A program made the translations under genes and the position numbers. Under the pieces are notes generated by a model that worked only from the letters and a program-made list of their open reading frames with translations, searched no databases and was not told the origin of the DNA. DNA of 64,000 bases from a bacterium (lineage in GTDB: Bacteria > SAR324 > XYD2-FULL-50-16). Where the stretch lies: positions 1-64,000 of the forward strand of contig JAVVEA010000006.1 in the NCBI GenBank assembly GCA_032250835.1, given 5' to 3'. Shown piece after piece: positions 2,880 to 25,320 of this stretch. Positions within the stretch are counted from its first letter, which is position 1. Every line of letters begins with the position of its first letter.

Positions 2880-4412
2880 ATGCGTAATTGGTGGCTGGCG
2901 ATTTTCTTTTTGATCTGGGCCCAACTGGCTTGGGCCGACTGCCGGACTTGCCATAAACTGTCTTGGCCCACTCCGGCCCACGCCCAAACGGCCTGTGTCG
3001 CCTGCCACCAGGGCCAAGCCCAAGCTACCACCGAAGCCGAAGCCCACCAAGGCCTGTTATCCAGCCCCGGCCAGCCGGAGGGGCGCGGCTGTGGGGCCGC
3101 TGACTGCCATAAAAAAGAGGTGGCTCAACATAGCGGTAACTTGATGAACCACGCATCCGGTTTGATCGAGACCACCCAACGGGCCTTTGGCGAACCGCCA
3201 CAAGCCAAGTCTGCCGCCCAACTGGGCCATCAGGGGGCCGAAAGCTACCTACGCAAGTTATGTATTTCCTGCCATTTAGGTACGGTGCTCGATTCCAGCC
3301 AGCCGGTCTTGGCTTGGCGCGGTGGGGCCTGTTTGGCTTGCCACTTAGGCGAGGCCAAAGCCGGGGTCCACCGGTCCCTCGACCTGCCCCGCGACAACCG
3401 GCGCTGTTTCGGCTGCCATAGCCGCTCGGGCCGGATCGCGCTGAGTTATGCCGGTTTGGCTGAACGGGCGGCACCCCAGCCGGGTAGTGTTTATCTTTTC
3501 GACGGACGCCCGGTCACCAAAGAGACACCGGACGTGCACAGCCGCGCCGGATTGCTTTGTACCGATTGCCACACCCGGCGCGGGGTGATGGGTGACGGTA
3601 GCGCAAAGGCCAAGGGCGAGCAGCGCGAAATCGCCTGCCTAGACTGCCACGGCGTCGAACGCCAGCCACCCTTTACAGCCCAGCGTTTTGGCAGCCCACT
3701 GCATAACCTACGGCAAAAAGCGGGGCGGCGTTTTTTAAAACCTAAAGCCCAAGGCGGAATGTTAGCAGTGCCGCTAGTGGACGCTGAGCACCAGACCCCG
3801 AACCATCAGCGCTTGAGCTGTGACGCCTGCCATGCGGGCTGGGCCCCGCAGTGTTATGGTTGCCATCTGGACTACGACCCTAAGGGCCAGCAGTTTGACC
3901 ACGCCCAAGGCAAAATAACCCCTGGCCGGTGGGTGGAGACCGGTTGGGACTATCAAGCAAAATTACCGGCCTTGGGTTGGTATCAAGGCCAAGTCACGCC
4001 CTTTGTTCCCGGCATGATCTGGACCCGGCAAACCCCCAAGGGGCCGCAGTCTGCCAGTATCTATGCCCCCCTTTCGCCGCACACCACCACGGGAGCGCGT
4101 AGCTGCGCCTCTTGCCACCAGAATCCAGCCGCCTGGGGCAAGGTGCCGGGCACTTCCGCCTCACCCCAGGGGGGTTGGGGTTTACCCCGAGCTTGGGGCC
4201 CCCAAAAGGGACCGGAGACGCTGCACCTCCAAGCCCGGAAGTTTAACGAATTTGAGGTGGGAAAATTCGAACGGGTGGGAGGCTGTTTGGAGTGCCATGG
4301 GGAAAAGTCCCCAATTTACCAAAATTTTTCAACTTCCCTAAAGCGTGCTTCAACACCGCAACACAGGGATGTGGCGGAAAAAAAAGGGCCGGTTGCCAAA
4401 AGCGGTAATTGA
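2880..4412 (+). CDS. periplasmic multiheme cytochrome c (11 CxxCH + 1 CxxxxCH), ExtM-like
   Basis: Signal peptide MRNWWLAIFFLIWAQLAWA from ATG 2880; heme motifs counted by eye; CHSRSGRIALSY and PDVH...CTDCHT...VMGDG segments. Confidence 0.85.
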   Translation: MRNWWLAIFFLIWAQLAWADCRTCHKLSWPTPAHAQTACVACHQGQAQATTEAEAHQGLLSSPGQPEGRGCGAADCHKKEVAQHSGNLMNHASGLIETTQRAFGEPPQAKSAAQLGHQGAESYLRKLCISCHLGTVLDSSQPVLAWRGGACLACHLGEAKAGVHRSLDLPRDNRRCFGCHSRSGRIALSYAGLAERAAPQPGSVYLFDGRPVTKETPDVHSRAGLLCTDCHTRRGVMGDGSAKAKGEQREIACLDCHGVERQPPFTAQRFGSPLHNLRQKAGRRFLKPKAQGGMLAVPLVDAEHQTPNHQRLSCDACHAGWAPQCYGCHLDYDPKGQQFDHAQGKITPGRWVETGWDYQAKLPALGWYQGQVTPFVPGMIWTRQTPKGPQSASIYAPLSPHTTTGARSCASCHQNPAAWGKVPGTSASPQGGWGLPRAWGPQKGPETLHLQARKFNEFEVGKFERVGGCLECHGEKSPIYQNFSTSLKRASTPQHRDVAEKKGPVAKSGN

Positions 4413-4493
4413 ACAATATTTAAAAATCCGTATAAACTGAAGCCAAGGTTGTTATCTAAGATCACCGCGAATTCGCCCTTTCCTGATATACCC

Positions 4494-6674
4494 ATGACGG
4501 CAAATACTTCACGCAGAGAATTTCTGCAAATCTCCTCGGGTTTTTTGGCTACCAGCGCCATCGTCGGACAGGTCCCTTTTCTAGGGTATGCACCCAATGC
4601 TGAGGCCGCTCCCGTTGCCGACAAGATTGTGCCCACCACCTGCGAACTGTGCTTTTGGCGCTGCGGGGTGGACGCCCACGTAAAGGATGGCAAGGTTTTT
4701 AAGCTTACCGGCCAGATGGACCACCCCCTTTCCAACGGCCACCTCTGCCCGCGCGGCACCGGGGGGATCGGCCTGCTTTATGATCCCGACCGCCTCCGTA
4801 CCCCCTTGATCCGCAAGACCGACGCCGACGGGACCCAAAAGTTCGTTGAGGCTAGTTGGGAAGAGGCCATTGCGTTGATTGCTAAGAAGTATGAAGAAAT
4901 GACCGCCGCCAATGAGGCGGACAAGATCGTTTTCTTTTCTCATGGCTTCGGTTCCAGCTTCTTTAACCGCCTCTTTGCGGCTTACGGCATCCTCAACCAC
5001 GCACACCCCTCCTACGCTCAGTGCCGCGGGGCCCGAGAAGAAGCCTTTGGCATGACCTTCGGCCACGCCGTGGGTAGCCCCGAGGGTTTGGATATTGCCA
5101 ACTCGGAATATTTGGTGCTGATCGGCAGCCACCTAGGCGAGAACATGCACAACACGGCGGTGCAGGACTTTAGTGAGGCCGTATCACGCGGCTGCAAGAT
5201 CATCGCCGTGGACCCGCGCTTTTCGGTGGCCGCTTCCAAGGCCGAGCGTTGGTTGCCTATTAAGGCTAGCACCGACTTGGCCCTGCTGCGCGCCTGGATT
5301 CGGATCTTGATTGAAGAAGAATTGTACGATCATGAATTTGTCAAAGCCAACTGCATCGGCCTTGAGGAGCTACGCGCCGGAGTGCGAGACGCCACCCCCG
5401 AGGCGACCTTTGCCATCACCGGCATTTCGGTTGAGGATATCCTGGCTGTGGGTCGTGACCTGGGTCGTTATGGTTCCAAGGCATTGGTGCATCCTGGACG
5501 GCACGTAAGCTGGTATGGCGATGACACCCAACGTTCTAGGGCTATTGCCATCTTAAACGCTTTGTTGGGTAACTACCGTATGCCCGGCGGTCTGATCCAC
5601 CAAACCAAAAAGTTTGGCGTCGGCACCCCCTATAAATTCACCAAGAAAGAGGGGGGCCACCATTATAAATCTAGGTTCCCCCTAGCGTCCCAGACCCCGG
5701 CTAACGAGGTGGTCGATGAAACCAAGAAAGGGAACTTCAAGTCTTGGTTCGTTTACGGCACCAACTTAGTCCAGACCTTGGGACATGTGGATGACACCAT
5801 CGAAGCCATTAAGGCCTTAGACTTCCTGGTAGTGATCGACGTTTTGCCCATGGAAATCACGGGCTATGCGGACGTGGTCCTGCCCGAGGTAACCTACCTG
5901 GAACGCTACGACGACCTGGACGACCGGGTTTACCGCCGCCCCTACGTGGCCCTGCGCCAGCCAGCAGTACCCCCCTTAAAGGGCTTAAACGCCAAACCGG
6001 GGCATGAGATTGCAAAATTGCTGGCCCAGGCCTGGAAACTGGACCCCGGTCTTTTCCCGCCCATCGAAGAATATTTGGACAACCGCCTCAAGACCGTGGG
6101 CAGCAGCCTCAAACAGATGTCTCAGGTGGGGGTGATGGTCAAAGAAGACCCGGATATTTACCGCAAACCCGGAGAACAACTGCGCTTTAACACCCCAACC
6201 GGTAAGATTGAGCTGTCTTCGACGAGGCTCAAGGCCGCTGGGTTCGACGGCGTGCCCCAATATACCTCGCACCCAGAGAACCCTCCAGGCTATTTGCGGC
6301 TGATCTACGGCCGGGCCCCGAACCATACCTTCGGGCGGACCTCAAACAATCGTTTCTTGGGCGAGTTGCTGTCCGAAAATGAGCTTTGGATCAACCGGAT
6401 CACCGCCCTGGACTTAGGTCTGGTGGACCAAGAATATGTCTTTTTGATCAATCAAGAGGGCAAGAAGTCTTCATCTAAGGTGCGCCTGAAATTGACCGAG
6501 CGCATCCGGCCGGATGCCGTCTATTTGGTGCACGGCTTTGGCCATACCGACCCCCGGCTCAAATGGGCCTTCCACCGGGGTGTGAGTGCCAACGAGATGA
6601 TCACCCAGCTGACGGTGGACCCCATTATGGGTAGCACGGGCATGAAAAACAATTTTGTCACCTTTGCAAGATGA
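4494..6674 (+). CDS. psrA: polysulfide/thiosulfate reductase catalytic subunit (PsrA/PhsA type, Mo-bisPGD)
   Basis: TAT motif [14 protein letters not shown]...C FS0 cluster; Cys ligand region [15 protein letters not shown] motif. Confidence 0.85.
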
Positions 6675-7219
6675 GCCGAGAACGTAAATACGCCATGATC
6701 ATCGACACCCAGCGTTGTGTCGGTTGCTCGGCTTGCGTCTACGCCTGCAAGTCGGAAAATAACGTCCCCGAGGGCTTCTGCCGCGATTGGGTCGTTTCGA
6801 TCACCGAGGGGCGCTACCCCAATCTAACGCTCACTAACCGCTCAGAGCGCTGCCAGCATTGCGAAGATGCACCCTGCGTCTCCAACTGCCCAACCGCAGC
6901 GAGCCACTATGCCGGTGACGGAACGGTGCAGATCGACCGGGATTTATGTACGGGCTGTAAGGCTTGCATCGCTGCTTGTCCCTATGATGCGCGCTACATC
7001 CACCCGGGCGGTTTCGCCGACAAATGCTCCTTCTGTAACCACCGCATCCAGGCAGGGATGACGAGCACCGCCTGCACCCAAGTTTGCCCCACCGGCACCT
7101 TGAATCTGGTGGACCTCAATAGCAACGACGGCAAAGCCGAAGCGCTCTTAAAGGGCCGACAGGTGAAACAAGACAAGACCCACGCCGGAACGAAACCCAA
7201 ACTCTTTTGGCTGGTGTAG
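6671..7219 (+). CDS. psrB: 4x[4Fe-4S] subunit (PsrB/NrfC type)
   Basis: [28 protein letters not shown] motifs; overlaps psrA stop. Confidence 0.9.
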
Positions 7220-7221
7220 CC

Positions 7222-8142
7222 ATGACTGAAATCGTATCGAACAAACTCAACCCCGACGTCCTGCCCCATTTGGCCATTTGGAATTGGGAGGTGCCGGTCT
7301 ATCTGTTTTTAGGTGGTTTGGCCGCCGGTCTTTTGGTGATTAGCTCCATGAGCTTGATCTTGCGTCAACGCTCCAACAGCAAACCTACCGTCAAACGGGC
7401 GGCCTTATTGGCCCCGATTGCTTTGAGCGCGGGCATGTTTTTCCTCTTTTTGGATCTTGCCTTTAAGCTGCATGTTTGGCGCTTTTACACCGCCTTCGTT
7501 TGGACTTCTCCCATGTCTTGGGGTAGTTGGATGTTGGTGGTCTTTTATCCCTTCTCGATCCTGCAAGCGGCCATTCTCTATAAAGAAGAACTCCGCGCCA
7601 AGTTTGGCGGGCTGGCCTTTTTGGACCAAGCTGAGACCCAATTGAGCAAGATCGCGGTGGTCAATGCCCACATTGGCGTGGGCGTAGGTGTCTATACAGG
7701 TATTTTGCTGGCGACTTTTTATGCGCGCCCGCTTTGGTCGAACGCCGTCTTGGGCCTGTTGTTTTTGCTTTCGGGCCTTTCGGCTGCGGCGGCCTTGATG
7801 CTTTGGATGGCCCCCCAGACCGAAAAGCGCATCTATTCGCGCCTGGACATGTATTTGCTCTCTTTAGAGGGCTTTGCCCTGACGGTCTTCGTGATCGGTG
7901 GCTTGACTGGAGACGCCAATCGAGCCCAAGCGATGTGGAGCTTCTTGACCGGTCATTATGCCCCTTGGTTCTGGTCGATCACTATTGTGGGCGGCTTGTT
8001 GCTGCCTCTGGTGCTCGAAACTATGGAAACGCTGGGCAAAAGCAAGTTCAGCTTCTTTGTGCCGTTGCTGGTTTTGATCGGTAGCCTGAGCCTGCGCTTC
8101 ATCTTGGTCTTTGCCGGCCAGTCGATGCCCACCTTTTCCTAA
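7222..8142 (+). CDS. psrC: NrfD/PsrC membrane anchor
   Basis: WEVPVYLFLGGLAAG, DL, SPMSWGSW, YTGILL motifs; ~8 TM helices. Confidence 0.9.
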   Translation: MTEIVSNKLNPDVLPHLAIWNWEVPVYLFLGGLAAGLLVISSMSLILRQRSNSKPTVKRAALLAPIALSAGMFFLFLDLAFKLHVWRFYTAFVWTSPMSWGSWMLVVFYPFSILQAAILYKEELRAKFGGLAFLDQAETQLSKIAVVNAHIGVGVGVYTGILLATFYARPLWSNAVLGLLFLLSGLSAAAALMLWMAPQTEKRIYSRLDMYLLSLEGFALTVFVIGGLTGDANRAQAMWSFLTGHYAPWFWSITIVGGLLLPLVLETMETLGKSKFSFFVPLLVLIGSLSLRFILVFAGQSMPTFS

Positions 8143-8156
8143 TCCAAAGAGGAATC

Positions 8157-8684
8157 ATGTCGAACAAAGAAATCACGGCCCAACCCTATTGGCCTAACCT
8201 GCTGGCCGGAATCGGCCTGGGATTGGTTTTGTTGATGGCCTATTACATTGCCGGGCGCGGCTTGGGCGGCTCTGGTGCGGTGACCCGCGTCGGTGCGGGG
8301 CTGCTGAATCTGGTCGCCCCGGAACATACCGGGGGCCTCGAATACTTTTCCCGCTATATCCGAGAAGGCAAGGTCAGTCTGAACGACTGGTTGGTCTTCC
8401 AGACCATCGGCGTCTTCTTTGGTGGCTTTGTCGCCGCCATGACCGCCGGTCGCTTCGGCAAGACCATCGAACATGGCCCCCAAATCACCGCCAAGCAACG
8501 CTTGGGCTGGGCTTTGTTGGGGGGGATTATTATGGGCATCGGGGCGCGGATCGCGCGCGGGTGCACCAGCGGTCAAGCCTTATCGGGCGGAGCTACCATG
8601 GCCCTAGGCAGTTGGGTCTTTATGCTGATGCTCTTCGCTGGGGGGTTCCTGGCGGCTATCTTTTTTAAGAGGTTGTGGCTATGA
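8157..8684 (+). CDS. YeeE/YedE sulfur (thiosulfate) transporter family
   Basis: GGIIMGIGARIARGCTSG motif; hydrophobic. Confidence 0.9.
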   Translation: MSNKEITAQPYWPNLLAGIGLGLVLLMAYYIAGRGLGGSGAVTRVGAGLLNLVAPEHTGGLEYFSRYIREGKVSLNDWLVFQTIGVFFGGFVAAMTAGRFGKTIEHGPQITAKQRLGWALLGGIIMGIGARIARGCTSGQALSGGATMALGSWVFMLMLFAGGFLAAIFFKRLWL

Positions 8685-9277
8685 ACGAGATCGTCGCGCC
8701 TTTGGCTAAAACCGGCTATTTGGGGCCGGAAATTAATTTGGTCTTCGCCATGCTGATCGGCGTGGGCTTTGGGTTCTTTTTAGAACGCGGCGGTTTCGGC
8801 TCGTCACGCAAGCTCACCGCCCAGTGGTTCGGCAAGGATTGGAGCGTCTTTCGGGTGATGTTCAGCGCCATTGTGGTCGCGCTCTTCGGCATCGTCTTTT
8901 TAGACCTCTTGGGGCTCATGCCCTTTGAGCGGCTTTACTTGAACCATACCTACTTGGTGCCCCAAATCTTAGGTGGATTGATGATGGGTGCGGGGTTTGT
9001 GATCGGTGGTTACTGCCCCGGTACGAGCTTTGTGGGCTTTGCTTCGGGTAAGTTGGACGCCTTGGTTTACATCATCGGGTTGTTGCTGGGTTCCGTCTTC
9101 TTTGGCGAAGCCTATGACCTCTTTGCGCCGATCATGGAGATGGGCGATATGGGGAATATTACGCTGCCCGAGTTTTTTGGACTGCCTGCTTTGGTGGTGG
9201 GGCTGATGGTTTTAGCTCTCGCCGCAGGTGGCTTTTGGGCCGCAGCTAAGGTGGAAAACCTCGTTAAGGACAAATAA
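8681..9277 (+). CDS. YeeE/YedE sulfur transporter family, second subunit
   Basis: GVGFGFFLERGGF and GGYCPGT motifs; ATGA overlap with previous gene. Confidence 0.9.
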   Translation: MNEIVAPLAKTGYLGPEINLVFAMLIGVGFGFFLERGGFGSSRKLTAQWFGKDWSVFRVMFSAIVVALFGIVFLDLLGLMPFERLYLNHTYLVPQILGGLMMGAGFVIGGYCPGTSFVGFASGKLDALVYIIGLLLGSVFFGEAYDLFAPIMEMGDMGNITLPEFFGLPALVVGLMVLALAAGGFWAAAKVENLVKDK

Positions 9278-11295: not shown

Positions 11296-11323
11296 AGGGG
11301 CCAAATTCTTTGGCCCCTTCTTT
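11296..11323 (+). terminator. intrinsic terminator of the psr operon
   Basis: AGGGGCCAA/TTGGCCCCT hairpin followed by TCTTT. Confidence 0.65.
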
Positions 11324-16156: not shown

Positions 16157-16268
16157 TGCTATGTCTAAATATTCAAATATCGCTACATAGCGGACCCCCA
16201 GCCGGGGACGCTATAGCGTGGCCCCCCTTGGGAAACCATCACCCCAAAAGCCCCTAGTAGAGGAGCCC

Positions 16269-17839: not shown

Positions 17840-20773
17840 ATGAACCAGAAAGTTGACAAGCACGCTCAAGAGGTCCCCCAGTTCACCGACAGCAACCGGG
17901 AACCGATCAAAATGACCCATGTTCAGCACCCCGACGGGCGCATGAGCAGCTATCCCCCAGAAGAGCATTGGGACGATTGGGTTGAATACGACAGCCGTTC
18001 TTGGCCCAGAAAAGTGGCCAAAAACTACCGCTTGGTGCCGACCATCTGCTTTAACTGCGAGTCGGCCTGTGGTTTGATGGCCTACGTAGACAAAACCAAC
18101 TACGAGATCCGTAAATTCGAAGGCAACCCGGTGCACCCCGGCTCTCGTGGCCGCAACTGCGCCAAGGGCCCGGCGACCCATAACCAGATCTACGACCCCG
18201 AACGCATCCTTTATCCTTTAAAGCGCGTCGGTAAGCGCGGTGAAGGCAAATGGAAGCGGATCACCTGGGACGAGGCTTTAGACGAAATCTCGGAAAAAAT
18301 GCGCGAGTCCCGCAAGAAGCGGCTCGACGGTATTATGTACCACGTCGGCCGCCCTGGCGAGGACCACTACACCAACCGCGTGATCAAGGCTTGGGGCACC
18401 GACAGCCACAACAGCCACACCAACATCTGTTCGGCTGCGGCCCGCTCGGGTTATTTCCAGTGGTCCGGTTTCGACCGGCCCAGCCCGGACTACGCGGCGG
18501 CCAAGTGTATCCTGCTGATCAGCTCGCACCTAGAGACGGGCCATTATTTTAACCCCCACGCCCAGCGGATTATGGAAGGGGTGCAGAATGGGGCCAAGTT
18601 GATCACCATGGACCCACGGCTTTCGAACACTGCGTCCAAGTCGAGCACCTGGCTGCCCGCATGGCCCGGTTCAGAGCCGACCATCCTGCTGGCCATTGCC
18701 AACTTCTTGATCCAATCGGGCCGCTACGATAAAGACTTTGTGCGCCGCTGGGTTAACTGGGAAGAGACGCTGCAAGCCTTTGTGGGCACCTCGGCCGCCG
18801 AACTGGCCGAAAGTGACGAAGCCAAGGCGCTGCAAACGGCACTGAAGGGCAAAAAAGAGTTTGTCTTTGATGACTTCGACGCCTTCATGAAGGTCACCTA
18901 TGGTGAGTTTACCTTCGAGCGCGCCGCTAAGGAAAGCGAACTGCCCATTGAAAAAATCATCGAAGCCGCCGACGCGGTGGCCGACTGCAATGGCCGTTTG
19001 GCGACCCACGTTTGGCGCGCCGCCTCGATGGCCCACTTAGGTGGCTGGCAGGTAGCCCGGACCCTGTTGTTCTTAAACGTCTTGACCGGCTCGATCGGCA
19101 CCGAAGGCGGCACCAGTGGCAACAGCTGGAACAAGTTCGTACCCAAGCCCTTTAAGAGCCCCGGCGACTTTACGGCCTGGAACGAATTGCAGATGCCCCA
19201 CGAGTGGCCCATGAGCTTCTACGAGATGTCCTTTATCTTGCCGCACTTCTTAGAAGAAGGCCGCGGCGAGATCGACGTCTATTTCACGCGGGTCTACAAC
19301 CCCATGTGGATCAACCCTGATGGCTTTATGTGGCTCAAGGCCCTTAAAGACGAAGAGAAGATGAAGTGCCATGTCGCCTTGACCCCTACCTGGAACGAGT
19401 CGGCTTGGTTTGCGGACTACATCTTGCCGATGGGTCATTCCGGCGAGCGCCACGACTTGATGTCCCAAGAAACCCACCGGGGCAAATGGATTGGCTTCCG
19501 CCAGCCGGTCCGCCGGGTGGCCATGGAAAAAGACGGCCAGAAGATCCACCGCACCTATGAAGCCAACCCCGGCGAAGTCTGGGAAGAAGCAGAATGGTGG
19601 GTAGATGTGACTTGGCGGATGGACCCCGATGGTTCTTTGGGTATCCGCCAATGGGTGGAATCGACCCAAAATCCCGGCCAACCGGTAACCCAGGACGAAT
19701 ATTGGGGCTGGCTCTTTGAGAACAGCGTACCCGGTTTGCCTGCTAAAGCCAAGGAACAGGGCTTGAGCCCCTTGGAGTACATGCGCAAGTATGGCTGTTT
19801 CGAGATCGAACAAGACATCCTGACGCCTTACGAAAAGGGCGTGGACGATGCGGGCTGCAAGGTAGACGAGGCCGGGCGGATCAAAGACGCCGCTGGTGCC
19901 GTTAAGGGCGTGATGATCGACGGCCAGGCGAAAGCGGGCTTTAACACCCCTTCGAAGAAGTTGGAATTTTATAGCCCCACCATGCACCAATGGGGTTGGA
20001 CCGAGAAAGAATACACCATTCCCTGGCAGCTCAAGAGCCACGTCCACCAAGACGAGATCGACCGGAGCAAGGGCATGATGATCTTACTGCCCAACTTCCG
20101 TTTGCCCACGTTGATCCACACCCGCAGTGCCAACGCCAAGTGGCTTTATGAGATCAGCCACAACAACCCGCTTTGGATCCACCCGAGCGATGCTAAGCGC
20201 ATTGGGGTCAAGTCCGGCGAGTTGGTGCGGGTTGAGACCGAGATCGGCTACTTTGTGGATAAAGCCTTTGTGACCGAAGGGATCAAGCCCGGCGTGGTCG
20301 CTTGTTCGCACCACTTGGGCCGCTGGAAGCTGAACGAGTCGGGCCCCGGCCTAGGCTCTGGCTTTGCTTCGGTGGTGGACCTTAAAGAAGAGCCCAATGG
20401 CGAGTACCGCTTGAGCATCAAAAAGATGGGTGGGCCTTGGAAGTCTTGGGACCCCGACACCTCCCGGGTTTGGTGGGAAGATGTGGGGGTGAACCAAAAC
20501 CTAACCCATGCCGCCCAGCCGGACCCCGTTTCGGGCGCTCATTGCTGGCACCAGAAGGCCATGATGGTCAAAAAGGCGGAGGCCAGCGACTCCTATGGAG
20601 ACGTTTGGGTGGACACCAACAAGTCCATGGAAGTTTACCAGAAGTGGGTCGGTTTGACCCGCTCTTGCGTAGACCACAGCCCCGACGGCACCCGCCGTCC
20701 TATGTGGTTCAACCGCCCCTTGCACCCCACCAAGGAATCTTACAAGATCCCTGAAAAACCCTTCGGGCGCTGA
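17840..20773 (+). CDS. Mo-bisPGD oxidoreductase without signal peptide (Psr/Ttr/Sre/Soe-related)
   Basis: CFNCESAC...CAKG FS0 motif; HNSHTNICS Cys-ligand region; ADYILP; no twin-arginine motif. Confidence 0.85.
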   Translation: MNQKVDKHAQEVPQFTDSNREPIKMTHVQHPDGRMSSYPPEEHWDDWVEYDSRSWPRKVAKNYRLVPTICFNCESACGLMAYVDKTNYEIRKFEGNPVHPGSRGRNCAKGPATHNQIYDPERILYPLKRVGKRGEGKWKRITWDEALDEISEKMRESRKKRLDGIMYHVGRPGEDHYTNRVIKAWGTDSHNSHTNICSAAARSGYFQWSGFDRPSPDYAAAKCILLISSHLETGHYFNPHAQRIMEGVQNGAKLITMDPRLSNTASKSSTWLPAWPGSEPTILLAIANFLIQSGRYDKDFVRRWVNWEETLQAFVGTSAAELAESDEAKALQTALKGKKEFVFDDFDAFMKVTYGEFTFERAAKESELPIEKIIEAADAVADCNGRLATHVWRAASMAHLGGWQVARTLLFLNVLTGSIGTEGGTSGNSWNKFVPKPFKSPGDFTAWNELQMPHEWPMSFYEMSFILPHFLEEGRGEIDVYFTRVYNPMWINPDGFMWLKALKDEEKMKCHVALTPTWNESAWFADYILPMGHSGERHDLMSQETHRGKWIGFRQPVRRVAMEKDGQKIHRTYEANPGEVWEEAEWWVDVTWRMDPDGSLGIRQWVESTQNPGQPVTQDEYWGWLFENSVPGLPAKAKEQGLSPLEYMRKYGCFEIEQDILTPYEKGVDDAGCKVDEAGRIKDAAGAVKGVMIDGQAKAGFNTPSKKLEFYSPTMHQWGWTEKEYTIPWQLKSHVHQDEIDRSKGMMILLPNFRLPTLIHTRSANAKWLYEISHNNPLWIHPSDAKRIGVKSGELVRVETEIGYFVDKAFVTEGIKPGVVACSHHLGRWKLNESGPGLGSGFASVVDLKEEPNGEYRLSIKKMGGPWKSWDPDTSRVWWEDVGVNQNLTHAAQPDPVSGAHCWHQKAMMVKKAEASDSYGDVWVDTNKSMEVYQKWVGLTRSCVDHSPDGTRRPMWFNRPLHPTKESYKIPEKPFGR

Positions 20774-21669
20774 TGGATTTTGTGAGCCAAATCGGGGTCT
20801 TGGTGCCCATGCTGACCGGTGAGATGGGCCTCGCCCAGCTCACCGCAGTTCGCCAGCACGAGTCCTTAGGGCCCGCGCTGGCCAACCACTATGGCCATCG
20901 ACCCGACGCGGAGTTGCTCGACGAGCTGGGCGCGGACCACTACCACCTTTTCGGGCTGGAGGTCTTCCCCTATGCTTCGGTGTTCTTTAACGAGAATGCC
21001 CATATGGGGGGCGTTTTGCCCGGACAGGTTGCCGAATTTTACGCACTGCGCGGCTTAGAGCGGCCCAGCGAGCCGGACCATTTGGGCCGTGAGTTGGCGC
21101 TCTTGGCTAATCTGGTGGAAGCAGGCGACGAGAAGGCCACGGCCAGCTTCTTCTGGCGCTACCTGATGAGTTGGTACTTTCCCTTTGCCGAGGCCGTCAA
21201 AGCACTGCAACACCCCTTTTATAATGCCCTCTTCGACCAGCTCGAAAGCCTGCTGGCCGTCTTGGGAAGTCAATTAGAGCCGATCCCGGCCCAGATCGAA
21301 GAGCCCGAGGCCGAGCCTTTAGAAGCGCTGGACCAACAAGAAACGGGTATCGGCGACATCAGCGAGTTTTTGTTGGCCCCCCGCTTGGCGGGCTTCTTTT
21401 TGAGCCGCACGGCCCTAAAAGAAATGGGCGAACGGATCGACATGCCCACCGGCTTCGGCACCCGCAGCACCCTGCTACCGCAGATCTTTTACACCGCCGT
21501 AGACTACGACCGCCTCCCGGCGCTCTTAGAAGAACTAGACCGCATCGCCGCCGCACAGCAAGAACGGTACAATGCCTTGGCCCAAGGGTGGCCGGGGATG
21601 CTGGACTATTGGCTGGGCCGCGTAGCCGTGATCCGTGCGATGCTCTCTAAGATGAAGGCGGCGGTTTAG
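20773..21669 (+). CDS. TorD/DmsD-family maturation chaperone
   Basis: PYASVF and EPDHLGREL motifs; follows the Mo enzyme. Confidence 0.85.
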   Translation: MDFVSQIGVLVPMLTGEMGLAQLTAVRQHESLGPALANHYGHRPDAELLDELGADHYHLFGLEVFPYASVFFNENAHMGGVLPGQVAEFYALRGLERPSEPDHLGRELALLANLVEAGDEKATASFFWRYLMSWYFPFAEAVKALQHPFYNALFDQLESLLAVLGSQLEPIPAQIEEPEAEPLEALDQQETGIGDISEFLLAPRLAGFFLSRTALKEMGERIDMPTGFGTRSTLLPQIFYTAVDYDRLPALLEELDRIAAAQQERYNALAQGWPGMLDYWLGRVAVIRAMLSKMKAAV

Positions 21670-22233: not shown

Positions 22234-22986
22234 CTAACCCCAAACCAACTTGCGGGCCAGGAACAACACCGCTGTGCCCAGGATCAGCGCCATCAAACGC
22301 TGCATCCAGACCTTCGGCAGTTTGCCTGCGCCCCAGTAAGAACCAATGAACCCCCCGACCAGCACCGACAGCGCCAACGGCCAATAGGGCAGCAGGTCAA
22401 CCGGCTGGTGGGTCAATCGGGCCGTTAGGGCCGTCACCGAATTGACCCAGATGAAGACCGCCCCGGCTGCGGCGGCTTCCTTGGCATGGCCCAAACCTAA
22501 CAACAAGATCGCCGGGACCAGATAGACCCCCCCTCCATTGCCCAGCGCACCAGCCAACCAGCCCAGCAGCGCGCCCAAAGCCAGCTGCATAGGTAACTTG
22601 AGCCCCACCGGGGCTGGTTTAGGCTCCTGGCCCCCTTGCCGCAGCAGCAGAACCAACAAAACCGCCAGACTGACCAGCAGCAACCAGTAGAACCACTCCT
22701 CCGGCAAGGGGACGGCCCCGCCCCCATAAGCGAAAGGGATCGAAAGGGCTAATACCGGCAGAATCAACCGGGCCCGTAGGTGCCCCTGGCGGATGAAGTT
22801 GGTCGCCCCCATGCTGGTGACGATCAGATTCAACGCCAAGGTCAAAGCCGGAATCTCCAAGTAGCCATAACCCAAGATAGCCATCAAGGCTGTATAAGAC
22901 GAACCGCCCCCCATGCCCACCGAGCTATAGGCCAGGGCGATCAGGAAAAACAAGGCAGAGGTGAGGAGGAGTTGGCTTAGGTCCAT
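22234..22986 (-). CDS. tauE: TauE/SafE sulfite exporter family
   Basis: YSSVGMGGGSSY and GNGGGVYLVP repeats; ~8 TM helices. Confidence 0.9.
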   Translation of the reverse strand: MDLSQLLLTSALFFLIALAYSSVGMGGGSSYTALMAILGYGYLEIPALTLALNLIVTSMGATNFIRQGHLRARLILPVLALSIPFAYGGGAVPLPEEWFYWLLLVSLAVLLVLLLRQGGQEPKPAPVGLKLPMQLALGALLGWLAGALGNGGGVYLVPAILLLGLGHAKEAAAAGAVFIWVNSVTALTARLTHQPVDLLPYWPLALSVLVGGFIGSYWGAGKLPKVWMQRLMALILGTAVLFLARKLVWG

Positions 22987-23072: not shown

Positions 23073-23561
23073 CTAGTTCATGTCGTCGGGTACTGGGGAA
23101 TTTTTGCGTAAGGGATAGAAGAAGATGTCTAGCTCTTCTTCGGGCACTTCGCGGCCCCAGATGTTGTGTAGGGCATAGCCCGAGTCGAACATGCCGCGTA
23201 CGCCGCCTTTGAGGGATTTGACGTTTTTAAAGCCCATTAGCTGCAAGACATGGGCGGCCATTAAGCTACGGCGACCGCTGCGGCAGATCACGATCAATTC
23301 CTTTTCCCGGCCATCGGCCAACTCAGCCACCGTGTCTTCATAGCCATGGTCGGCGGCGGATTCTAAAATGCCGCGCGGGACCAGCATACTCCCCATCACG
23401 TGGGCCTTGCTGAACTCGCTTTCTTCGCGCACATCCACCACTAGGGTCCCTTCGGCGCGGCCTTCTAGCGCATGTTCTACTTCCCAAGGCAGGACCTCGA
23501 CCACTTGGTCACGGATCTCTGCTAAAAAATCATCAAAACTCTTGTGTCCCCGGTTTGTCAT
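23073..23561 (-). CDS. cytoplasmic single-domain rhodanese
   Basis: VVDVRE, VPRGILE, ICRSGRRS active loop, SLKGG. Confidence 0.92.
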   Translation of the reverse strand: MTNRGHKSFDDFLAEIRDQVVEVLPWEVEHALEGRAEGTLVVDVREESEFSKAHVMGSMLVPRGILESAADHGYEDTVAELADGREKELIVICRSGRRSLMAAHVLQLMGFKNVKSLKGGVRGMFDSGYALHNIWGREVPEEELDIFFYPLRKNSPVPDDMN

Positions 23562-23640
23562 CCGCTTCCTCCAATAGATGAAAAAGACTTAGTCCGGCAA
23601 AGACGCAGGGTGCCTTTGCCGGTAGCCAATCCTTGGCCCT

Positions 23641-25320
23641 TTAAGTCATGTCGATCATGGCACAGGGGCACTCATCGGCGCACTTCTTACAGCCGATGCA
23701 CTTGTCCCAAATAAAGGAATAGTGACCGCCTTTAGGCAGCTTCTTGATGGCACCATCGCCACAGTAGCTCCAGCAGGTATCGCAGTCGAAGCAGTCGCCG
23801 CAGCTCATGCACCGGCTAGCTTCAAAGAGCAATTGCTCTTGAGTGAAGCCGGTTAGGTAGCCTTCGAAGCTGTTCATGCGCTTCTCGGGAGCCTCAACGG
23901 TGATTTCGTTGCGCGGAGCCTCGGGGTAGAAGTCCAATTTCATGCTCTTGTAGCTGACCACGTTGGGCTTGCCCTCGGGCTTTAAGGTCTCGCCGCGCAA
24001 GAAGGCGTCGATCTCCAAAGCAGCCTTGCGGCCATCGCCAAAGGCGTCGGTGACTAAGCCTAAGCGACGGATGATGTCGCCACCGGCCCAAACCTTACCG
24101 CCTTCTTCTAAGCGGCCATGTTCTTGAACCTGGGTCCAACCGTTCTCGGATTTAGCTTCTTCGATGCCGGTGTAATCGGGGGCTTGGCTGATCGCGGCGA
24201 TCATCAAACCACAATCGACGGTCATCTCGGTGCCCGGTAATTCGGTCACGATGGGCCAGCCGTTTTCGTCTTTCTCGCCCATTTCCACTTGCAGGAACTG
24301 AACGCCGGTAACTTTGCCGTCAGCGGTTTGGATCACCTTGGGGGTGAAGCCGGCGTGTAATTCAACGCCTTCTTCGGCTCCTTCGCGGATTTCTTCTTCG
24401 GTGGCAGGCATCAGCTCGCGGGTTTCGCGGCAGACCATGATCACTTCTTTGGCACCCAAGCGGCGGCAGGTACGGGCTACGTCATAAGCGACGTCACCAC
24501 CACCGATCACCAAAACGCGCTCGGGCATTTCGGGGGCTTTGCCTAGGTTTTGGGCTAACAAGAATTCCACACCGGCCCAGGCGTTTTCTGAGTCCATGCC
24601 TTCTAAGGGTAGCTTGCGGCCCGTCTGGGCACCGATAGCTACATAGACGGCATCGTACTTGGACTTCAGGTCTGCCATGCTGATGTCTTTGCCGATGCGG
24701 GTGTTGGGCTTGTAGTCCACACCTAGGTCAAAGATCCGCTGGATTTCGGACTGCAACACCTCGCGGGGGAGGCGGTAGCTAGGGATACCCCAGCGCAACA
24801 TACCCCCGGCCTCGGGTCGCTCGTCAAAAAGCGTCACGCCATGACCCCGGCGGGCCAACTGGTAAGCTGCCGAAAGTCCGGCAGGGCCCGCGCCGATCAC
24901 GGCCACGTTTTTGCCACTCATTTCTTCGGTCAGTTTGGTCAAGGCCAACTGGTTGCCCAGGGCGAAGTCGCCAATGGCCATCTCGACCCGGTTGATCGAA
25001 ACGGGGGAATCCTTTTGGCCCCGGTTACAGCCGGACTCGCAAGGATGGGGGCAGACCCGGCCCATGGTGGCGGGCAGCGGGTTTTTGTCGGTCAGCCGCT
25101 CAAAGGCCATTTTGGTGGCCATCTCCTGGCTACGACCATATTCGTCGGCCTGGGCGATCAGCGTTAAATATCCCCGAATGTCCTCGCTACTGGGGCACGA
25201 GTCCGTACAGGGCGGGGTCTTGGTATTGTACAGCGGCAGCTGGCTGCTTTGTTTTTTCTTACCCACGCCAGGGGGCTGGGCGCGCACGGAGCGCTCGATT
25301 CTGCGAACTACGATAGGCAT
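23641..25320 (-). CDS. dsrL: DsrL iron-sulfur flavoprotein (NAD(P)H:acceptor oxidoreductase)
   Basis: PPCTDSCPSSEDIRGYL, GRVCPHPCESGCNR, GAGPAG, GGGDVA; C-terminal 2x[4Fe-4S] CMSCGDCFDCDTC/CIGCKKCADECPC; dsrEFH nearby. Confidence 0.85.
   Translation of the reverse strand: MPIVVRRIERSVRAQPPGVGKKKQSSQLPLYNTKTPPCTDSCPSSEDIRGYLTLIAQADEYGRSQEMATKMAFERLTDKNPLPATMGRVCPHPCESGCNRGQKDSPVSINRVEMAIGDFALGNQLALTKLTEEMSGKNVAVIGAGPAGLSAAYQLARRGHGVTLFDERPEAGGMLRWGIPSYRLPREVLQSEIQRIFDLGVDYKPNTRIGKDISMADLKSKYDAVYVAIGAQTGRKLPLEGMDSENAWAGVEFLLAQNLGKAPEMPERVLVIGGGDVAYDVARTCRRLGAKEVIMVCRETRELMPATEEEIREGAEEGVELHAGFTPKVIQTADGKVTGVQFLQVEMGEKDENGWPIVTELPGTEMTVDCGLMIAAISQAPDYTGIEEAKSENGWTQVQEHGRLEEGGKVWAGGDIIRRLGLVTDAFGDGRKAALEIDAFLRGETLKPEGKPNVVSYKSMKLDFYPEAPRNEITVEAPEKRMNSFEGYLTGFTQEQLLFEASRCMSCGDCFDCDTCWSYCGDGAIKKLPKGGHYSFIWDKCIGCKKCADECPCAMIDMT

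What the first reader, a model, noticed from the sequence alone, without database searches (positions are those of the whole stretch)
2880..25320. 22-kb sulfur island joining reductive and oxidative modules: candidate disproportionation or sulfur-cycling system
Seen: one locus carries a periplasmic Psr/Phs reductase, two YeeE/YedE, three rhodaneses, SQR+DUF1641, dsrEFH-dsrE2-tusA, a signal-less Mo enzyme with chaperone, tauE and dsrL, with no dsrAB, dsrC or dsrMKJOP in the window. Established: DsrEFH, TusA, DsrE2 and rhodanese relay sulfane sulfur in reverse-Dsr oxidisers; Psr/Phs reduce polysulfide or thiosulfate; yedE-tusA-dsrE clusters and Mo-oxidoreductase clusters have been proposed as markers of sulfur disproportionators. 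Inference: the island could import sulfane sulfur, reduce part in the periplasm and oxidise part in the cytoplasm.
Basis: partly seen in the sequence, partly recalled or inferred. Interest (0 to 1): 0.8.

Follow-up and report, generated by a model that had tools for sequence, protein, structure and literature searches.

The report
Sulfur-oxidation gene island in a SAR324 bacterium
This 22-kb stretch groups genes that take up reduced sulfur, pass it along carrier proteins and probably oxidise the resulting sulfite, next to a separately inherited polysulfide-reductase unit; it looks like the toolkit of a sulfur oxidiser, not a new disproportionation machine.

Summary
Two corrections apply. The "two YeeE" are the two halves of one split transporter. 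A fused FeS+NrfD membrane subunit (16218-17831) ahead of the signal-less Mo enzyme was missed.

The genome is 97% complete and belongs to the published "mixed-Dsr" SAR324/Lambdaproteobacteria group. Elsewhere it carries dsrC-AB-(DsrD-like)-dsrT-MKJOP, a full Sox system with SoxC, a cbb3 oxidase and Nap. No Sat or Apr was found.

The conserved core is SQR-DUF1641, dsrEFH-dsrE2-tusA, and the cytoplasm-facing Soe-like Mo enzyme with its chaperone. In other SAR324 genomes the Mo enzyme sits beside dsrAB. In other phyla it sits beside persulfide and sulfite genes. Its most likely role is sulfite:quinone oxidation.

The psr-yeeE unit is inherited as a block. It is unlinked in the three closest relatives that have it, but lies beside tusA-dsrEFH again in another genus.

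Best reading (about 0.6): a Sox-Dsr-Soe-type oxidation locus with an adjoining polysulfide and sulfur-import unit. Disproportionation is not excluded (about 0.1). It does not match the proposed YTD or MOLY markers.

Novelty is modest: a new member of known kinds, with some unusual details.

The parts
2880..4412 (+). Multihaem cytochrome c (ORF opens at 2631; probable start M84 at 2880, followed by a signal peptide)
   Evidence: Cytochrom_c3_2 and ExtM-like matches. 11 CxxCH and 1 CxxxxCH motifs. Conserved ahead of psrA in G001 and G003 at 44-46% identity.
4449..6674 (+). psrA: periplasmic Mo subunit of the polysulfide/thiosulfate reductase family
   Evidence: Tat motif SRREFLQ. 566.8 bits over its full length to T. 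thermophilus PsrA 2vpw_A. PhsA model 398.8 bits, below the 694 cut-off.
6671..7219 (+). psrB: four-cluster FeS subunit
   Evidence: Fer4_11 72.6 bits. 85% identical in G001, G003 and G004.
7207..8142 (+). psrC: NrfD-type membrane anchor
   Evidence: Pfam NrfD 139.4 bits.
8157..8684 (+). Half of a split YeeE/YedE-type sulfur transporter (matches the C-terminal half of the Sulf_transp model)
   Evidence: Sulf_transp profile positions 173-310 of 310. Invariant GCTSGQ motif.
8675..9277 (+). Other half of the split YeeE/YedE-type transporter (matches the N-terminal half of the model)
   Evidence: Sulf_transp profile positions 1-156 of 310. Invariant GYCPGT motif.
9281..9877 (+). Membrane-anchored rhodanese-like protein whose only cysteine is the last residue (…EGC)
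   Evidence: Weak Rhodanese match, E 0.0064. C-terminal EGC invariant in 5 of 5 sequences. AF2 model at pLDDT 60: TM helix, alpha/beta core, disordered tail. Best fold matches are single-domain rhodanese-like proteins, E about 2e-3. Encoded after the yeeE halves in G001 and G003 and after psrC in G083.
9976..11286 (+). Periplasmic protein with three rhodanese domains and a signal peptide
   Evidence: Rhodanese 149.1 bits in 3 stretches. Signal peptide, and CGGLTCG and CSTGVR loops.
11296..11318 (+). Terminator-like hairpin ending the psr-rhodanese transcription unit
   Evidence: Best-scoring terminator-like site in the scan, 10 pairs of which 6 are G-C. The total number of sites is not above the shuffles.
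11625..12914 (+). Type III sulfide:quinone reductase (probable start at 11685)
   Evidence: NF049943 642.9 bits, cut-off 525. A promoter-like site lies at 11579-11608. DNA collinearity with L008 begins at 11683.
12926..13636 (+). DUF1641 protein paired with SQR
   Evidence: PF07849 36 bits. The pair is conserved in L008.
14033..14269 (-). tusA sulfur carrier (78 aa from the internal Met)
   Evidence: TusA 77.6 bits. CPLP motif.
14301..14810 (-). dsrE2 sulfur carrier
   Evidence: NF047629 219.9 bits, cut-off 210.
14835..15128 (-). dsrH
   Evidence: TIGR03011 100.8 bits, cut-off 49.2.
15144..15512 (-). dsrF
   Evidence: TIGR03010 134.4 bits, cut-off 94.15.
15521..15877 (-). dsrE (118 aa from the internal Met)
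   Evidence: TIGR03012 115.3 bits, cut-off 89.25. A promoter-like site lies at 15982-15954.
16218..17831 (+). Fused FeS (SoeB-like) and NrfD (SoeC-like) subunit, with no signal peptide
   Evidence: Fer4_11 at residues 68-161 and NrfD at residues 249-509. The fusion is conserved next to the Mo subunit in the loci that extend upstream of it, in Thermomicrobium roseum and in G027.
17840..20773 (+). Signal-less Mo-bisPGD catalytic subunit, SoeA-like (probable sulfite:quinone oxidoreductase)
   Evidence: Three molybdopterin-enzyme Pfam domains. No Tat motif. No NCBIfam model reaches its cut-off. Context evidence.
20773..21669 (+). NarJ/TorD-family assembly chaperone for the Mo enzyme
   Evidence: Nitrate_red_del 37.8 bits. 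Conserved after the Mo subunit. A terminator-like site lies at 21669-21688.
22234..22986 (-). TauE/SafE-family anion exporter (sulfite or sulfate export inferred)
   Evidence: PF01925 82.7 bits. TauE also lies near the Soe-like or dsr genes in L009, L012, L029 and L030.
23073..23561 (-). Cytoplasmic single-domain rhodanese
   Evidence: Rhodanese 55.4 bits. CRSGRRS loop.
23641..25320 (-). dsrL-type FeS flavoprotein (NAD(P)H:acceptor oxidoreductase)
   Evidence: NF009410 624.3 bits, cut-off 516. C-terminal two-cluster ferredoxin domain. C-R-E at the NfnB YRR position in this protein and in 5 of 5 orthologues.
25617..28127 (+). Hybrid sensor kinase (Tll0287-like, PAS, HisKA, HATPase, REC domains) divergent from dsrL; a possible regulator
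   Evidence: Pfam. Only its position suggests a link to the island.

Best explanation
The island is the accessory sulfur-oxidation locus of a SAR324/Lambdaproteobacteria bacterium that oxidises reduced sulfur by a Sox-Dsr-Soe-type route.

Proposed pathway:
1. SQR feeds electrons from sulfide to quinone and makes polysulfide.
2. Sulfane sulfur reaches the cytoplasm and is passed from rhodanese to TusA, then DsrE2, then DsrEFH, and on to DsrC.
3. DsrAB, with DsrMKJOP and DsrL (encoded elsewhere and at 23641-25320), converts DsrC-bound sulfur to sulfite.
4. The signal-less Mo enzyme, with its fused FeS-NrfD subunit and its own chaperone, oxidises sulfite to sulfate on the cytoplasmic side and reduces quinone.
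5. TauE exports the anion.

The psr unit comprises the multihaem cytochrome, PsrABC, the split YeeE channel, the C-terminal-Cys rhodanese-like protein and the periplasmic triple rhodanese. It is a separately inherited block that has come to lie next to this core. It most likely handles periplasmic polysulfide or thiosulfate and hands sulfur to the channel. It could also serve as an anaerobic respiratory reductase.

Shown: gene identities, topology signals, synteny and genome inventory.
Inferred: substrates, direction of flow, and every transfer step.
For: - The relay genes pass curated cut-offs, and the expected cysteines are present.
- The core from SQR to the chaperone is collinear at 73-75% DNA identity with a named Ca. 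Lambdaproteobacteria MAG.
- dsrEFH-dsrE2-tusA lies beside the Mo enzyme in 4 of 4 close relatives examined.
- In G003 and G004 the block lies 2.5-6 kb from the dsr operon.
- In the oxidative-type SAR324 genome G027 the order is soeBC-soeA-tusA-dsrCAB-dsrL-dsrEFH-dsrTMKJO.
- Of the 12 phylum genomes with both DsrE and the Mo enzyme, 9 carry it on the same contig as dsrE or dsrA.
- Outside the phylum the enzyme sits with metallo-beta-lactamase-fold, rhodanese, split Sulf_transp, TusA, TauE and CsoR/CstR-like genes.
- Neither subunit has a signal peptide. The FeS domain is fused to the N-terminus of NrfD, which fits the inverted, N-side orientation proposed for SoeC. PsrC, by contrast, has its termini on the P-side (PMC8076601 passages).
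- The genome has soxXYZAB and soxC, ccoNOP and napAB. It shows no aprA, and no ATP sulfurylase by two models.
- DsrL has C-R-E where NADP(H)-specific DsrL-2 has YRR (motif rule from PMC7596348 passages).
Against: - DsrA is 89-92% identical to the Lambdaproteobacteria DsrA. Two papers place those on the reductive-type side, or between the two types.
- A conserved DsrD-like gene follows dsrB and dsrT precedes dsrM. Both are features of reducers.
- Psr is a classical reductase.
- No reference SoeA sequence could be fetched, so orthology to the characterised enzyme is untested.
- The Mo enzyme is only mildly enriched in DsrE-positive genomes: 12 of 21, against 25 of 67 DsrE-negative ones. Related genomes are not independent samples.
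- SoxC together with Dsr departs from the Sox-Dsr-Soe pattern of cultured oxidisers.
- No RuBisCO large subunit was found.
- No expression data are available.
Confidence: 0.6

Rival explanations
1. Quinone-coupled disproportionation. With S0, polysulfide or thiosulfate and no external acceptor, part of the sulfur is imported and oxidised to sulfate by DsrEFH/DsrC/DsrAB and the Soe-like enzyme. The electrons enter the quinone pool and are consumed by periplasmic Psr, which reduces the rest to sulfide. This route would need no Sat or Apr.
For: - Oxidative and reductive quinone-linked modules lie within 22 kb.
- A psr/yeeE unit lies beside tusA-dsrEFH again in G083, a different genus.
- PsrA orthologues at 62% identity or more occur in 10 of 26 DsrA-positive genomes, against 5 of 62 DsrA-negative ones.
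- The reductive-like DsrAB with a DsrD-like gene could work in either direction.
- Anantharaman et al. list sulfur disproportionation among possible internal sources of sulfite for the Lambdaproteobacteria.
Against: - The psr unit is unlinked in G001, G003 and G004, and absent from G002 and G086.
- A terminator-like and a promoter-like site separate psr from sqr.
- The genome has O2 and nitrate respiration and a full Sox system, so no internal electron sink is needed.
- The island matches neither the YTD nor the MOLY marker.
- Without Sat and Apr there is no substrate-level ATP. Psr and a cytoplasm-facing Soe give no obvious proton-motive gain (inference).
- The published rules treat disproportionators as lacking dsrEFH.
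Confidence: 0.1
2. Condition-dependent switching. The same Dsr core runs oxidatively when O2 or nitrate is present and reductively (sulfite or polysulfide respiration) when they are absent. The island would supply parts for both modes.
For: - Klier et al. state that switching cannot be ruled out for the mixed DsrD + DsrEFH + DsrL group.
- DsrAB is reductive-like with a DsrD-like gene, while dsrEFH, dsrL and the Soe-like enzyme are also present.
- Psr, Nap and cbb3 oxidase are all encoded.
Against: - DsrL lacks the YRR motif that the DsrL study links to NADPH-driven sulfite reduction.
- Without Sat and Apr, only externally supplied sulfite could be respired.
- No regulatory or expression evidence exists.
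Confidence: 0.2
3. Purely reductive reading. The organism is a sulfite/polysulfide reducer, the signal-less Mo enzyme is a cytoplasmic reductase of some sulfur, selenium or other oxyanion, and DsrEFH/TusA serve sulfur trafficking unrelated to energy metabolism.
For: - Reductive-like DsrAB, a DsrD-like gene and dsrT.
- The nearest solved relative of the Mo subunit is Thermus Psr, though over the N-terminal third only, at 153 bits.
- YedE-, ExtM- and SQR-'selenoprotein subtype' model matches hint at selenium chemistry.
Against: - Sox with SoxB and SoxC, SQR, and respiratory oxidases.
- The Mo enzyme heads the dsr operon of the oxidative-type SAR324 genome G027.
- Elsewhere the Mo enzyme sits with genes that resemble persulfide dioxygenase.
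- DsrEFH is taken as an oxidiser marker in the papers read.
Confidence: 0.07

Closest known systems
SoeABC sulfite:quinone oxidoreductase (Allochromatium vinosum, Aquifex aeolicus)
   Same: - A Mo-bisPGD subunit with an N-terminal FeS motif, a four-cluster FeS module and a haem-less NrfD anchor.
- No signal peptides, so the enzyme faces the cytoplasm.
- It is encoded with dsr genes, as in the Sox-Dsr-Soe pathway.
   Different: - B and C are fused into one 537-aa protein.
- The gene order is BC-A-chaperone.
- The NrfD review reports SoeC only from Proteobacteria, Clostridia and Aquificae, and does not use the words 'fused' or 'fusion'.
- Sequence orthology to the characterised SoeA could not be tested here.
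PSRLC3 of green sulfur bacteria
   Same: - One paper describes it as an alternative sulfite-oxidising system of green sulfur bacteria.
- A Chloroherpeton thalassium protein is 69% identical to the window's Mo subunit.
   Different: - That PSRLC3 is a two-gene, fused, signal-less complex is recalled, not seen in any call.
- Only 3 papers in the library hold the term, one of them about a plant.
- Identity of the Chloroherpeton protein with PSRLC3 was not checked.
Rhd-TusA-DsrE2 and DsrEFH-DsrC sulfur relay of Allochromatium vinosum
   Same: Rhodanese, tusA, dsrE2 and dsrEFH are all present with their cysteines. The relay is described in the passages.
   Different: - Here dsrEFH is not inside the dsrAB operon. 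It is divergently paired with the Soe-like genes.
- DsrAB is of the transitional, reductive-like clade.
PsrABC of Thermus thermophilus, and psrABC with two Sulf_transp genes and a rhodanese in Ignavibacteria / Ca. Thermonerobacter
   Same: - Full-length similarity of PsrA, 566.8 bits.
- The same psrABC, split DUF395/Sulf_transp and rhodanese arrangement is described in PMC6338057.
   Different: - A roughly 12-haem cytochrome precedes psrA.
- A membrane-anchored rhodanese-like protein ending in an invariant Cys follows the channel.
- The whole unit abuts dsrEFH.
'Mixed' Dsr gene content of SAR324 and Ca. Lambdaproteobacteria (Anantharaman 2018; Klier 2024)
   Same: - DsrAB with a DsrD-like gene, plus dsrEFH and dsrL on another scaffold, and no sat, apr or qmo. 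This is the published pattern.
- DsrA is 89-92% identical to that of the named MAGs.
   Different: - The main text of Klier et al. contains none of the words soe, sox, sqr, polysulfide, molybd- or disproportionat-.

Membership tests
SoeABC (sulfite:quinone oxidoreductase) | Three modules: a Mo-bisPGD subunit with one FeS cluster, a four-cluster FeS subunit, and a haem-less NrfD anchor | tested here: met
   Pfam domains. The modules are present, but B and C are fused. The definition comes from PMC8076601 Table 1.
SoeABC (sulfite:quinone oxidoreductase) | Peripheral subunits on the cytoplasmic (N) side: no Tat or Sec signal | tested here: met
   No RR motif or hydrophobic leader at either N-terminus, whereas psrA has SRREFLQ. 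The FeS domain is fused to the N-terminus of NrfD. A crude hydropathy count of helices was inconclusive.
SoeABC (sulfite:quinone oxidoreductase) | Sequence orthology to the characterised A. vinosum or A. aeolicus SoeA | not testable with these tools
   No named SoeA was returned, and the original paper is not held.
SoeABC (sulfite:quinone oxidoreductase) | Sulfite-dependent quinone reduction | not testable with these tools
   This needs a biochemical assay.
Psr/Phs polysulfide/thiosulfate reductase | Tat-exported Mo subunit similar to PsrA, with PsrB and an NrfD-type PsrC | tested here: met
   The substrate is not resolved: the PhsA equivalog model scores 398.8 bits, below its 694 cut-off.
DsrEFH / DsrE2 / TusA relay | All five proteins above curated cut-offs, with carrier cysteines | tested here: met
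   for the scores and for the sequences. Residue numbering of the A. vinosum cysteines is recalled.
DsrL-2 (NADP(H)-specific DsrL of organisms with reductive-type DsrAB) | YRR motif at the NfnB Y310-R312 position | tested here: not met
   The window's DsrL and 5 of 5 orthologues read C-R-E (VCRETxELMPA). The aligned solved homologues and the own-genome paralogue read YRRT. The rule comes from PMC7596348. No DsrL tree was built.
'Mixed' Dsr genomes (Klier group two) | DsrD, DsrEFH and DsrL in one genome, with dsrEFH away from dsrAB | tested here: inconclusive
   - DsrEFH and DsrL: met.
- DsrD: the 81-aa gene after dsrB does not match PF08679.
- The same protein folds as a winged helix. DsrD chains rank 5 and 13 in the fold search but are not separated from other winged-helix proteins.
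- Its profile aligns at 98.6% probability, E 8e-16, with P0174. P0174 passes Pfam's DsrD cut-off at 27.1 bits against 24.2.
- Only 4 of 75 family members scanned touch DsrD at E 0.01 or better.
YTD cluster (proposed disproportionation marker) | yedE-related gene, tusA, dsrE-like gene and two conserved hypothetical genes in one cluster | tested here: not met
   The yeeE halves are in the psr unit, 5 kb from tusA on the other strand. tusA is followed by dsrE2 and dsrHFE, not by the two hypothetical genes.
MOLY cluster (proposed disproportionation marker) | Mo subunit A with a signal peptide, a small soluble FeS subunit of about 191 aa, and a TorD-like chaperone | tested here: not met
   The chaperone is present. 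A has no signal peptide, and the FeS module is fused to a membrane domain.
Sox-Dsr-Soe core pathway of cultured oxidisers (Watanabe 2019) | SoxXYZAB, DsrABEFHCMKJOP and SoeABC present, and SoxCD absent | tested here: not met
   The first three sets are present, counting the Mo enzyme as Soe-like. SoxC is also present at 620.7 bits against a 420 cut-off, and a CxxCH ORF lies downstream of it. The paper reports no organism with both.

The most novel reading that the evidence does not exclude
The island encodes a disproportionation route that needs neither Sat nor Apr and runs through the quinone pool.
1. Periplasmic rhodaneses and the C-terminal-Cys arm protein load sulfane sulfur into the split YeeE channel.
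2. TusA, DsrE2, DsrEFH and DsrC deliver the sulfur to a reductive-like DsrAB that runs in reverse.
3. The fused Soe-like enzyme makes sulfate.
4. The six electrons per sulfur return through quinol to Psr and its multihaem cytochrome, which reduce three more sulfur atoms to sulfide.

A weaker form of the same idea is that the psr-yeeE-arm unit is the long-sought route by which periplasmic sulfane sulfur enters the cytoplasm of Dsr-type oxidisers.
Probability: 0.1. Interest if true: 0.8.

Novelty: new member of a known kind. Interest (0 to 1): 0.4.

Why it matters
Two papers call the dsr gene content of this lineage perplexing or transitional, and leave the direction of its Dsr pathway open.

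This locus and the genome around it add context that those texts do not discuss:
- A cytoplasm-facing, Soe-like enzyme is tied to dsrEFH, and in relatives to dsrAB.
- The genome has a complete Sox system, a cbb3 oxidase and Nap, and shows no Sat or Apr.
- DsrL lacks the NADP motif.

Together these argue that a reductive-like DsrAB with a DsrD-like partner can serve oxidation. That bears on how oxidative Dsr metabolism arose and on how dsr genes in metagenomes are read.

Two smaller leads follow. The fused Soe-like enzyme occurs in many phyla, and no NCBIfam model, source annotation or Atlas cluster name seen here gives it a function. The psr-yeeE unit, with its C-terminal-Cys protein, is a candidate for sulfur import.

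Tried and rejected
- DsrD by Pfam: no match in the genome scan (the controls were silent too) or on the 81-aa ORF at E up to 1. No PDB sequence match either.
- Foldseek placed DsrD among many winged-helix proteins at E about 1e-2.
- Naming the Mo enzyme failed in four ways. No NCBIfam model reached its cut-off. The homologue list gave only generic names. The Atlas gave only generic names. The plasmid search gave 9 records, all called 'molybdopterin-dependent oxidoreductase' or unannotated.
- Literature on PSRLC3: 3 papers hold the term, none holds 'polysulfide reductase-like complex 3', and the SoeABC paper is not held.
- Complex prediction of the two YeeE halves with the 198-aa protein gave 'no answer', score 0.27 against a mark of 0.32. 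This is not evidence either way.
- The look-up of sequencing runs listed no RNA holder, so co-expression is untested and read laying was not used.
- A crude hydropathy count of helices in the fused subunit merged segments and was not used.
- Promoter- and terminator-like sites were not more numerous than in shuffles: 6 against 8.5 and 31 against 28.7. Only the positions of the best sites are cited.
- No DsrAB or DsrL tree with named oxidative references was built, because no such sequences could be fetched.
- The ORFs at 13673-14014 and 21674-21916 match no family and were set aside as probably non-coding.

Full report
**What is in the sequence**

ORF listing, Pfam and NCBIfam give five transcription units between 2880 and 25320.

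- Unit 1, plus strand:
  - A multihaem cytochrome c. The ORF opens at 2631. The signal peptide starts at M84, base 2880. It has 11 CxxCH and 1 CxxxxCH motifs.
  - psrA, with the Tat motif SRREFLQ. It scores 566.8 bits over its full length to Thermus thermophilus PsrA.
  - psrB and psrC.
  - Two half-size Sulf_transp ORFs that match model positions 173-310 and 1-156.
  - A 198-aa membrane-anchored protein.
  - A signal-peptide protein with three rhodanese domains.
- Unit 2: type III SQR (642.9 bits, cut-off 525) and a DUF1641 protein.
- Unit 3, minus strand: dsrE, dsrF, dsrH, dsrE2 and tusA. The four dsr genes are above their NCBIfam cut-offs and TusA is above its Pfam cut-off.
- Unit 4, divergent from unit 3:
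  - A 537-aa fusion of a four-cluster FeS domain (residues 68-161) to an NrfD domain (residues 249-509).
  - A 977-aa Mo subunit with no Tat motif.
  - A NarJ/TorD-like chaperone.
- Unit 5, minus strand: dsrL, a single-domain rhodanese and tauE.

The best terminator-like hairpin of the scan lies just after the triple rhodanese, at 11296-11318. The best promoter-like site lies just before sqr, at 11579-11608. The totals of such sites do not exceed the shuffles.

All island genes are single copy in the genome. The "two YeeE" are one split transporter. The fused FeS-NrfD gene was not listed.

**The rest of the genome**

The window is the first 64 kb of contig C40 of a 3.66-Mb assembly in 43 contigs, 97.19% complete.

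- Contig C4 carries dsrC, dsrA (560 bits, cut-off 392.85), dsrB, an 81-aa ORF, an IscA-like gene, dsrT (RsbRD_N domain) and dsrMKJOP.
- No aprA was found. The best match scores 25.2 bits against a cut-off of 641.75.
- No ATP sulfurylase was found with TIGR00339 or PF01747. In both searches the control genomes did respond.
- The genome encodes soxX, Y, Z, A, a SoxAX-binding protein, soxB (846.2 bits, cut-off 550) and soxC (620.7 bits, cut-off 420).
- It also encodes a full-length YedE-type transporter, ccoNOP with ccoG, napAB, and an Arr/Arx-like enzyme.
- A CxxCH ORF lies downstream of soxC.
- No RuBisCO large subunit was found.
- Only four clear molybdopterin enzymes are present: Nap, Psr, the Arr/Arx-like enzyme and the signal-less enzyme.

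**Who it is**

- The Mo subunit is 82% and 79% identical to proteins of two named Candidatus Lambdaproteobacteria MAGs. It is 75% identical to SAR324-labelled MAGs.
- DsrA is 92% and 89% identical to the DsrA of those two MAGs, and 85% identical to the two SAR324-like ones.
- Passages of Anantharaman et al. [quoted passage not shown] They have dsrD and dsrEFH, lack aprBA, sat and qmo, and are called "perplexing".
- Passages of Löffler et al. 2020 (PMC7596348) put their DsrA on the reductive-type branch.
- Results sections of Klier et al. 2024 (PMC11406059) define a "mixed" SAR324 group. It has DsrD, DsrEFH and DsrL. Its DsrAB lies between the reductive and oxidative clades. Its dsrEFH lies on a different scaffold from dsrAB.

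The window's genome fits that description. The main text of Klier et al. does not contain soe, sox, sqr, polysulfide, molybd- or disproportionat-.

**The DsrD question**

- The 81-aa ORF after dsrB is conserved at 77-81% identity in four relatives.
- It does not match Pfam DsrD or any PDB sequence.
- Its AlphaFold model (pLDDT 82.4) is a three-helix, two-strand winged helix.
- In Foldseek, DsrD chains rank 5 and 13, but at E about 1e-2 among many winged-helix proteins.
- An exhaustive profile search found 133 proteins at E 1e-3 or better.
- I scanned 75 of these (P0126-P0200). P0125 and P0201-P0257 were left out.
- Of the 75, 4 touch PF08679 at E 0.01 or better. One, P0174, passes its cut-off at 27.1 bits against 24.2.
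- The profile of the 81-aa family aligns with P0174 at 98.6% probability, E 8e-16, with 45% identity over 67 columns.
- Another hit, P0197, joins this domain to a GltD/DsrL-like N-terminus.

I read the gene as a divergent DsrD-family member. This is probable, not proven.

**Which parts travel together**

- Window 11683-21524 is collinear with L008, a contig of the closest named MAG, at 73-75% DNA identity. In L008 the two genes left of the island (u94, u209) directly precede sqr.
- The psr unit, window 3545-9467, is collinear at 71% with a different contig of the same MAG.
- The block of cytochrome, psrABC, two yeeE halves and the 198-aa gene is kept intact in G001 and G003. Part of it is kept on a short contig in G004. 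The triple rhodanese is not beside it in those genomes. G002 has no orthologue; its best match is 33%.
- In G003 the psr unit and the dsr/Mo-enzyme unit lie on separate contigs of 340 kb and 534 kb.
- dsrEFH-dsrE2-tusA adjoins the Mo enzyme in 4 of 4 close relatives. In G003 and G004 that block lies 2.5-6 kb beyond dsrP.

Across the 88 genomes held for the phylum, including the window's own:

| Feature | Genomes |
|---|---|
| Mo enzyme | 37 of 88 |
| DsrA | 26 of 88 |
| DsrE | 21 of 88 |
| PsrA orthologue at 62% identity or more | 15 of 88 |
| Mo enzyme among DsrE-positive genomes | 12 of 21 |
| Mo enzyme among DsrE-negative genomes | 25 of 67 |
| PsrA orthologue among DsrA-positive genomes | 10 of 26 |
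| PsrA orthologue among DsrA-negative genomes | 5 of 62 |
| DsrE, Mo enzyme and PsrA orthologue together | 7 of 88 |

Related genomes are not independent, so these ratios are descriptive only.

- In 9 of the 12 genomes with DsrE and the Mo enzyme, the enzyme shares a contig with dsrE or dsrA.
- In G027, an oxidative-type marine SAR324 whose DsrA is 46% identical to the window's, the order is soeBC-soeA-tusA-dsrC-dsrA-dsrB-dsrL-dsrEFH-dsrT-MKJO.
- G083 belongs to another genus of the same family and has no Mo enzyme. It carries, on one contig: tusA, dsrEFH, a psrAB-like pair, two yeeE halves, a triple rhodanese, psrABC, and a relative of the 198-aa protein.

Linkage of psr/yeeE to tusA-dsrEFH has therefore arisen, or been kept, in two genera. 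It is absent in at least G001 and G003.

**What the signal-less Mo enzyme is**

- No NCBIfam model reaches its cut-off. The best is PhsA at 208.7 bits against 694.
- The nearest solved structure is Thermus PsrA, over residues 61-325 only.
- Homologues at about 66-71% identity come from Chloroflexota, Rhodothermaceae, Chloroherpeton, Bacteroidota and others. Sources name them only generically.

Gene context is consistent across lineages:
- Chloroflexota: (TusA), the fusion, the Mo subunit, a metallo-beta-lactamase-fold protein, a double rhodanese, split Sulf_transp genes and a chaperone.
- Bacteriovoracaceae: a metallo-beta-lactamase-fold protein before it and TauE after it.
- Thermomicrobium roseum: a CsoR/CstR-type regulator gene directly upstream.

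These neighbours are the kinds of genes that make or handle persulfide and sulfite. That reading is inference from established knowledge of persulfide dioxygenase, rhodanese and TauE systems.

The review of NrfD subunits (PMC8076601 passages) defines SoeABC as follows:
- It is a sulfite:quinone oxidoreductase.
- Its composition is SoeA (Mo-bisPGD and one cluster), SoeB (four clusters) and SoeC (NrfD-like).
- The peripheral subunits are proposed to lie on the N-side, so SoeC is proposed to be inverted. PsrC, by contrast, has both termini on the P-side.

A signal-less FeS domain fused to the N-terminus of the NrfD domain requires exactly that inverted arrangement.

Watanabe et al. 2019 (PMC6397845 passages) found soeABC in all dsr-positive oxidisers they compared.

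I therefore hold that the enzyme works like SoeABC. Membership by sequence could not be tested, because no reference SoeA could be fetched.

**DsrL**

Alignment to solved NfnB-type proteins shows that their YRRT lines up with C-R-E-T in the window's DsrL. The same C-R-E occurs in 5 of 5 orthologues at 64-74% identity. A paralogous domain on C13 has YRRT. Löffler et al. tie YRR to NADP(H) specificity and to DsrL-2, the type found with reductive DsrAB. They state that NADPH is needed for sulfite reduction. The missing motif is thus a further, indirect pointer to the oxidative direction. It needs kinetic measurements to confirm.

**The 198-aa protein**

- The word-indexed search found only 4 proteins, including the window's own.
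- With the G001 orthologue added, 5 of 5 sequences end in EGC. This is the only cysteine.
- The model (pLDDT 60) shows an N-terminal helix, an alpha/beta core and a roughly 45-residue disordered tail.
- The best fold matches are single-domain rhodanese-like proteins, at E about 2e-3.
- By analogy with carrier proteins that bear a terminal cysteine, it may shuttle sulfur at the YeeE channel. This is inference only.

**Comparison with the disproportionation markers**

Passages of PMC9676032 define two proposed markers:
- YTD is a yedE-related gene, tusA, a dsrE-like gene and two hypothetical genes. The paper notes it also occurs in a strain that could not be grown by disproportionation.
- MOLY is a Mo subunit with a signal peptide, a small 191-aa FeS subunit and a TorD-like chaperone.

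The window matches neither.

**Verdict**

- The most likely reading (about 0.6) is an oxidative Sox-Dsr-Soe-type locus in a published transitional lineage, with a separately inherited polysulfide and import unit beside it.
- Switching between directions (about 0.2), quinone-coupled disproportionation (about 0.1) and a purely reductive role (about 0.07) remain open.
- No expression data could be obtained.

Noticed in passing
G000:C5, locus L031 about 8570-14930 (minus strand): soxX-Y-Z-A, a SoxAX-binding protein and soxB are followed by a 143-aa DsrE-like ORF, soxC (620.7 bits, cut-off 420) and a CxxCH ORF that may be soxD. SoxCD together with Dsr is described as mutually exclusive in cultured oxidisers (PMC6397845).
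   Followed up: partly
G000:C4, locus L005 14499-14858: An IscA-like 119-aa gene with a Cys-rich tail (…CGSTAGSSSCGTGCSCG) lies between the DsrD-like gene and dsrT. It is conserved at that place in all four relatives examined.
   Followed up: partly
P0197: A 382-aa database protein joins a domain of the 81-aa DsrD-like family to a GltD/DsrL-like N-terminus (Fer4_20 plus an NAD-binding domain). It may be a natural DsrD-DsrL fusion, or a gene cut at a contig end.
   Followed up: no
G000:C38, locus L033 6031-10874: An NrfD-like gene, an ArrA-like Mo subunit (1138.3 bits, below the 1600 cut-off), an ArrB-like gene and a TorD-like gene. This is either an arsenate reductase or an Arx-type arsenite oxidase.
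   Followed up: no
window 34050-39632: A seven-gene Mrp-type cation/proton antiporter operon. It explains the strong negative AT skew at 34-38 kb.
   Followed up: yes
window 32923-33906: hypA and hupE/ureJ nickel genes on the minus strand hint at a [NiFe] hydrogenase or a urease elsewhere in the genome.
   Followed up: no
window 438-842: A HicB-like antitoxin gene lies near the contig start. No hicA was looked for.
   Followed up: no
G000:C4, locus L005 7026-10474; also L046 (Azoarcus plasmid): An SsuA/PhnD-type binding protein and a hybrid sensor kinase lie upstream of the dsr operon. A binding protein, kinase and sigma-54 regulator of the same families precede an unfused FeS, NrfD, Mo enzyme and TorD cluster in Azoarcus sp. 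KH32C, whose Mo subunit is 30.7% identical to the window's.
   Followed up: no
The window's Mo subunit is closer to Chloroflexota and Rhodothermaceae proteins (66-71% identity) than to those of most other SAR324 genomes (52-57%). This suggests lateral transfer of the Soe-like genes.
   Followed up: no
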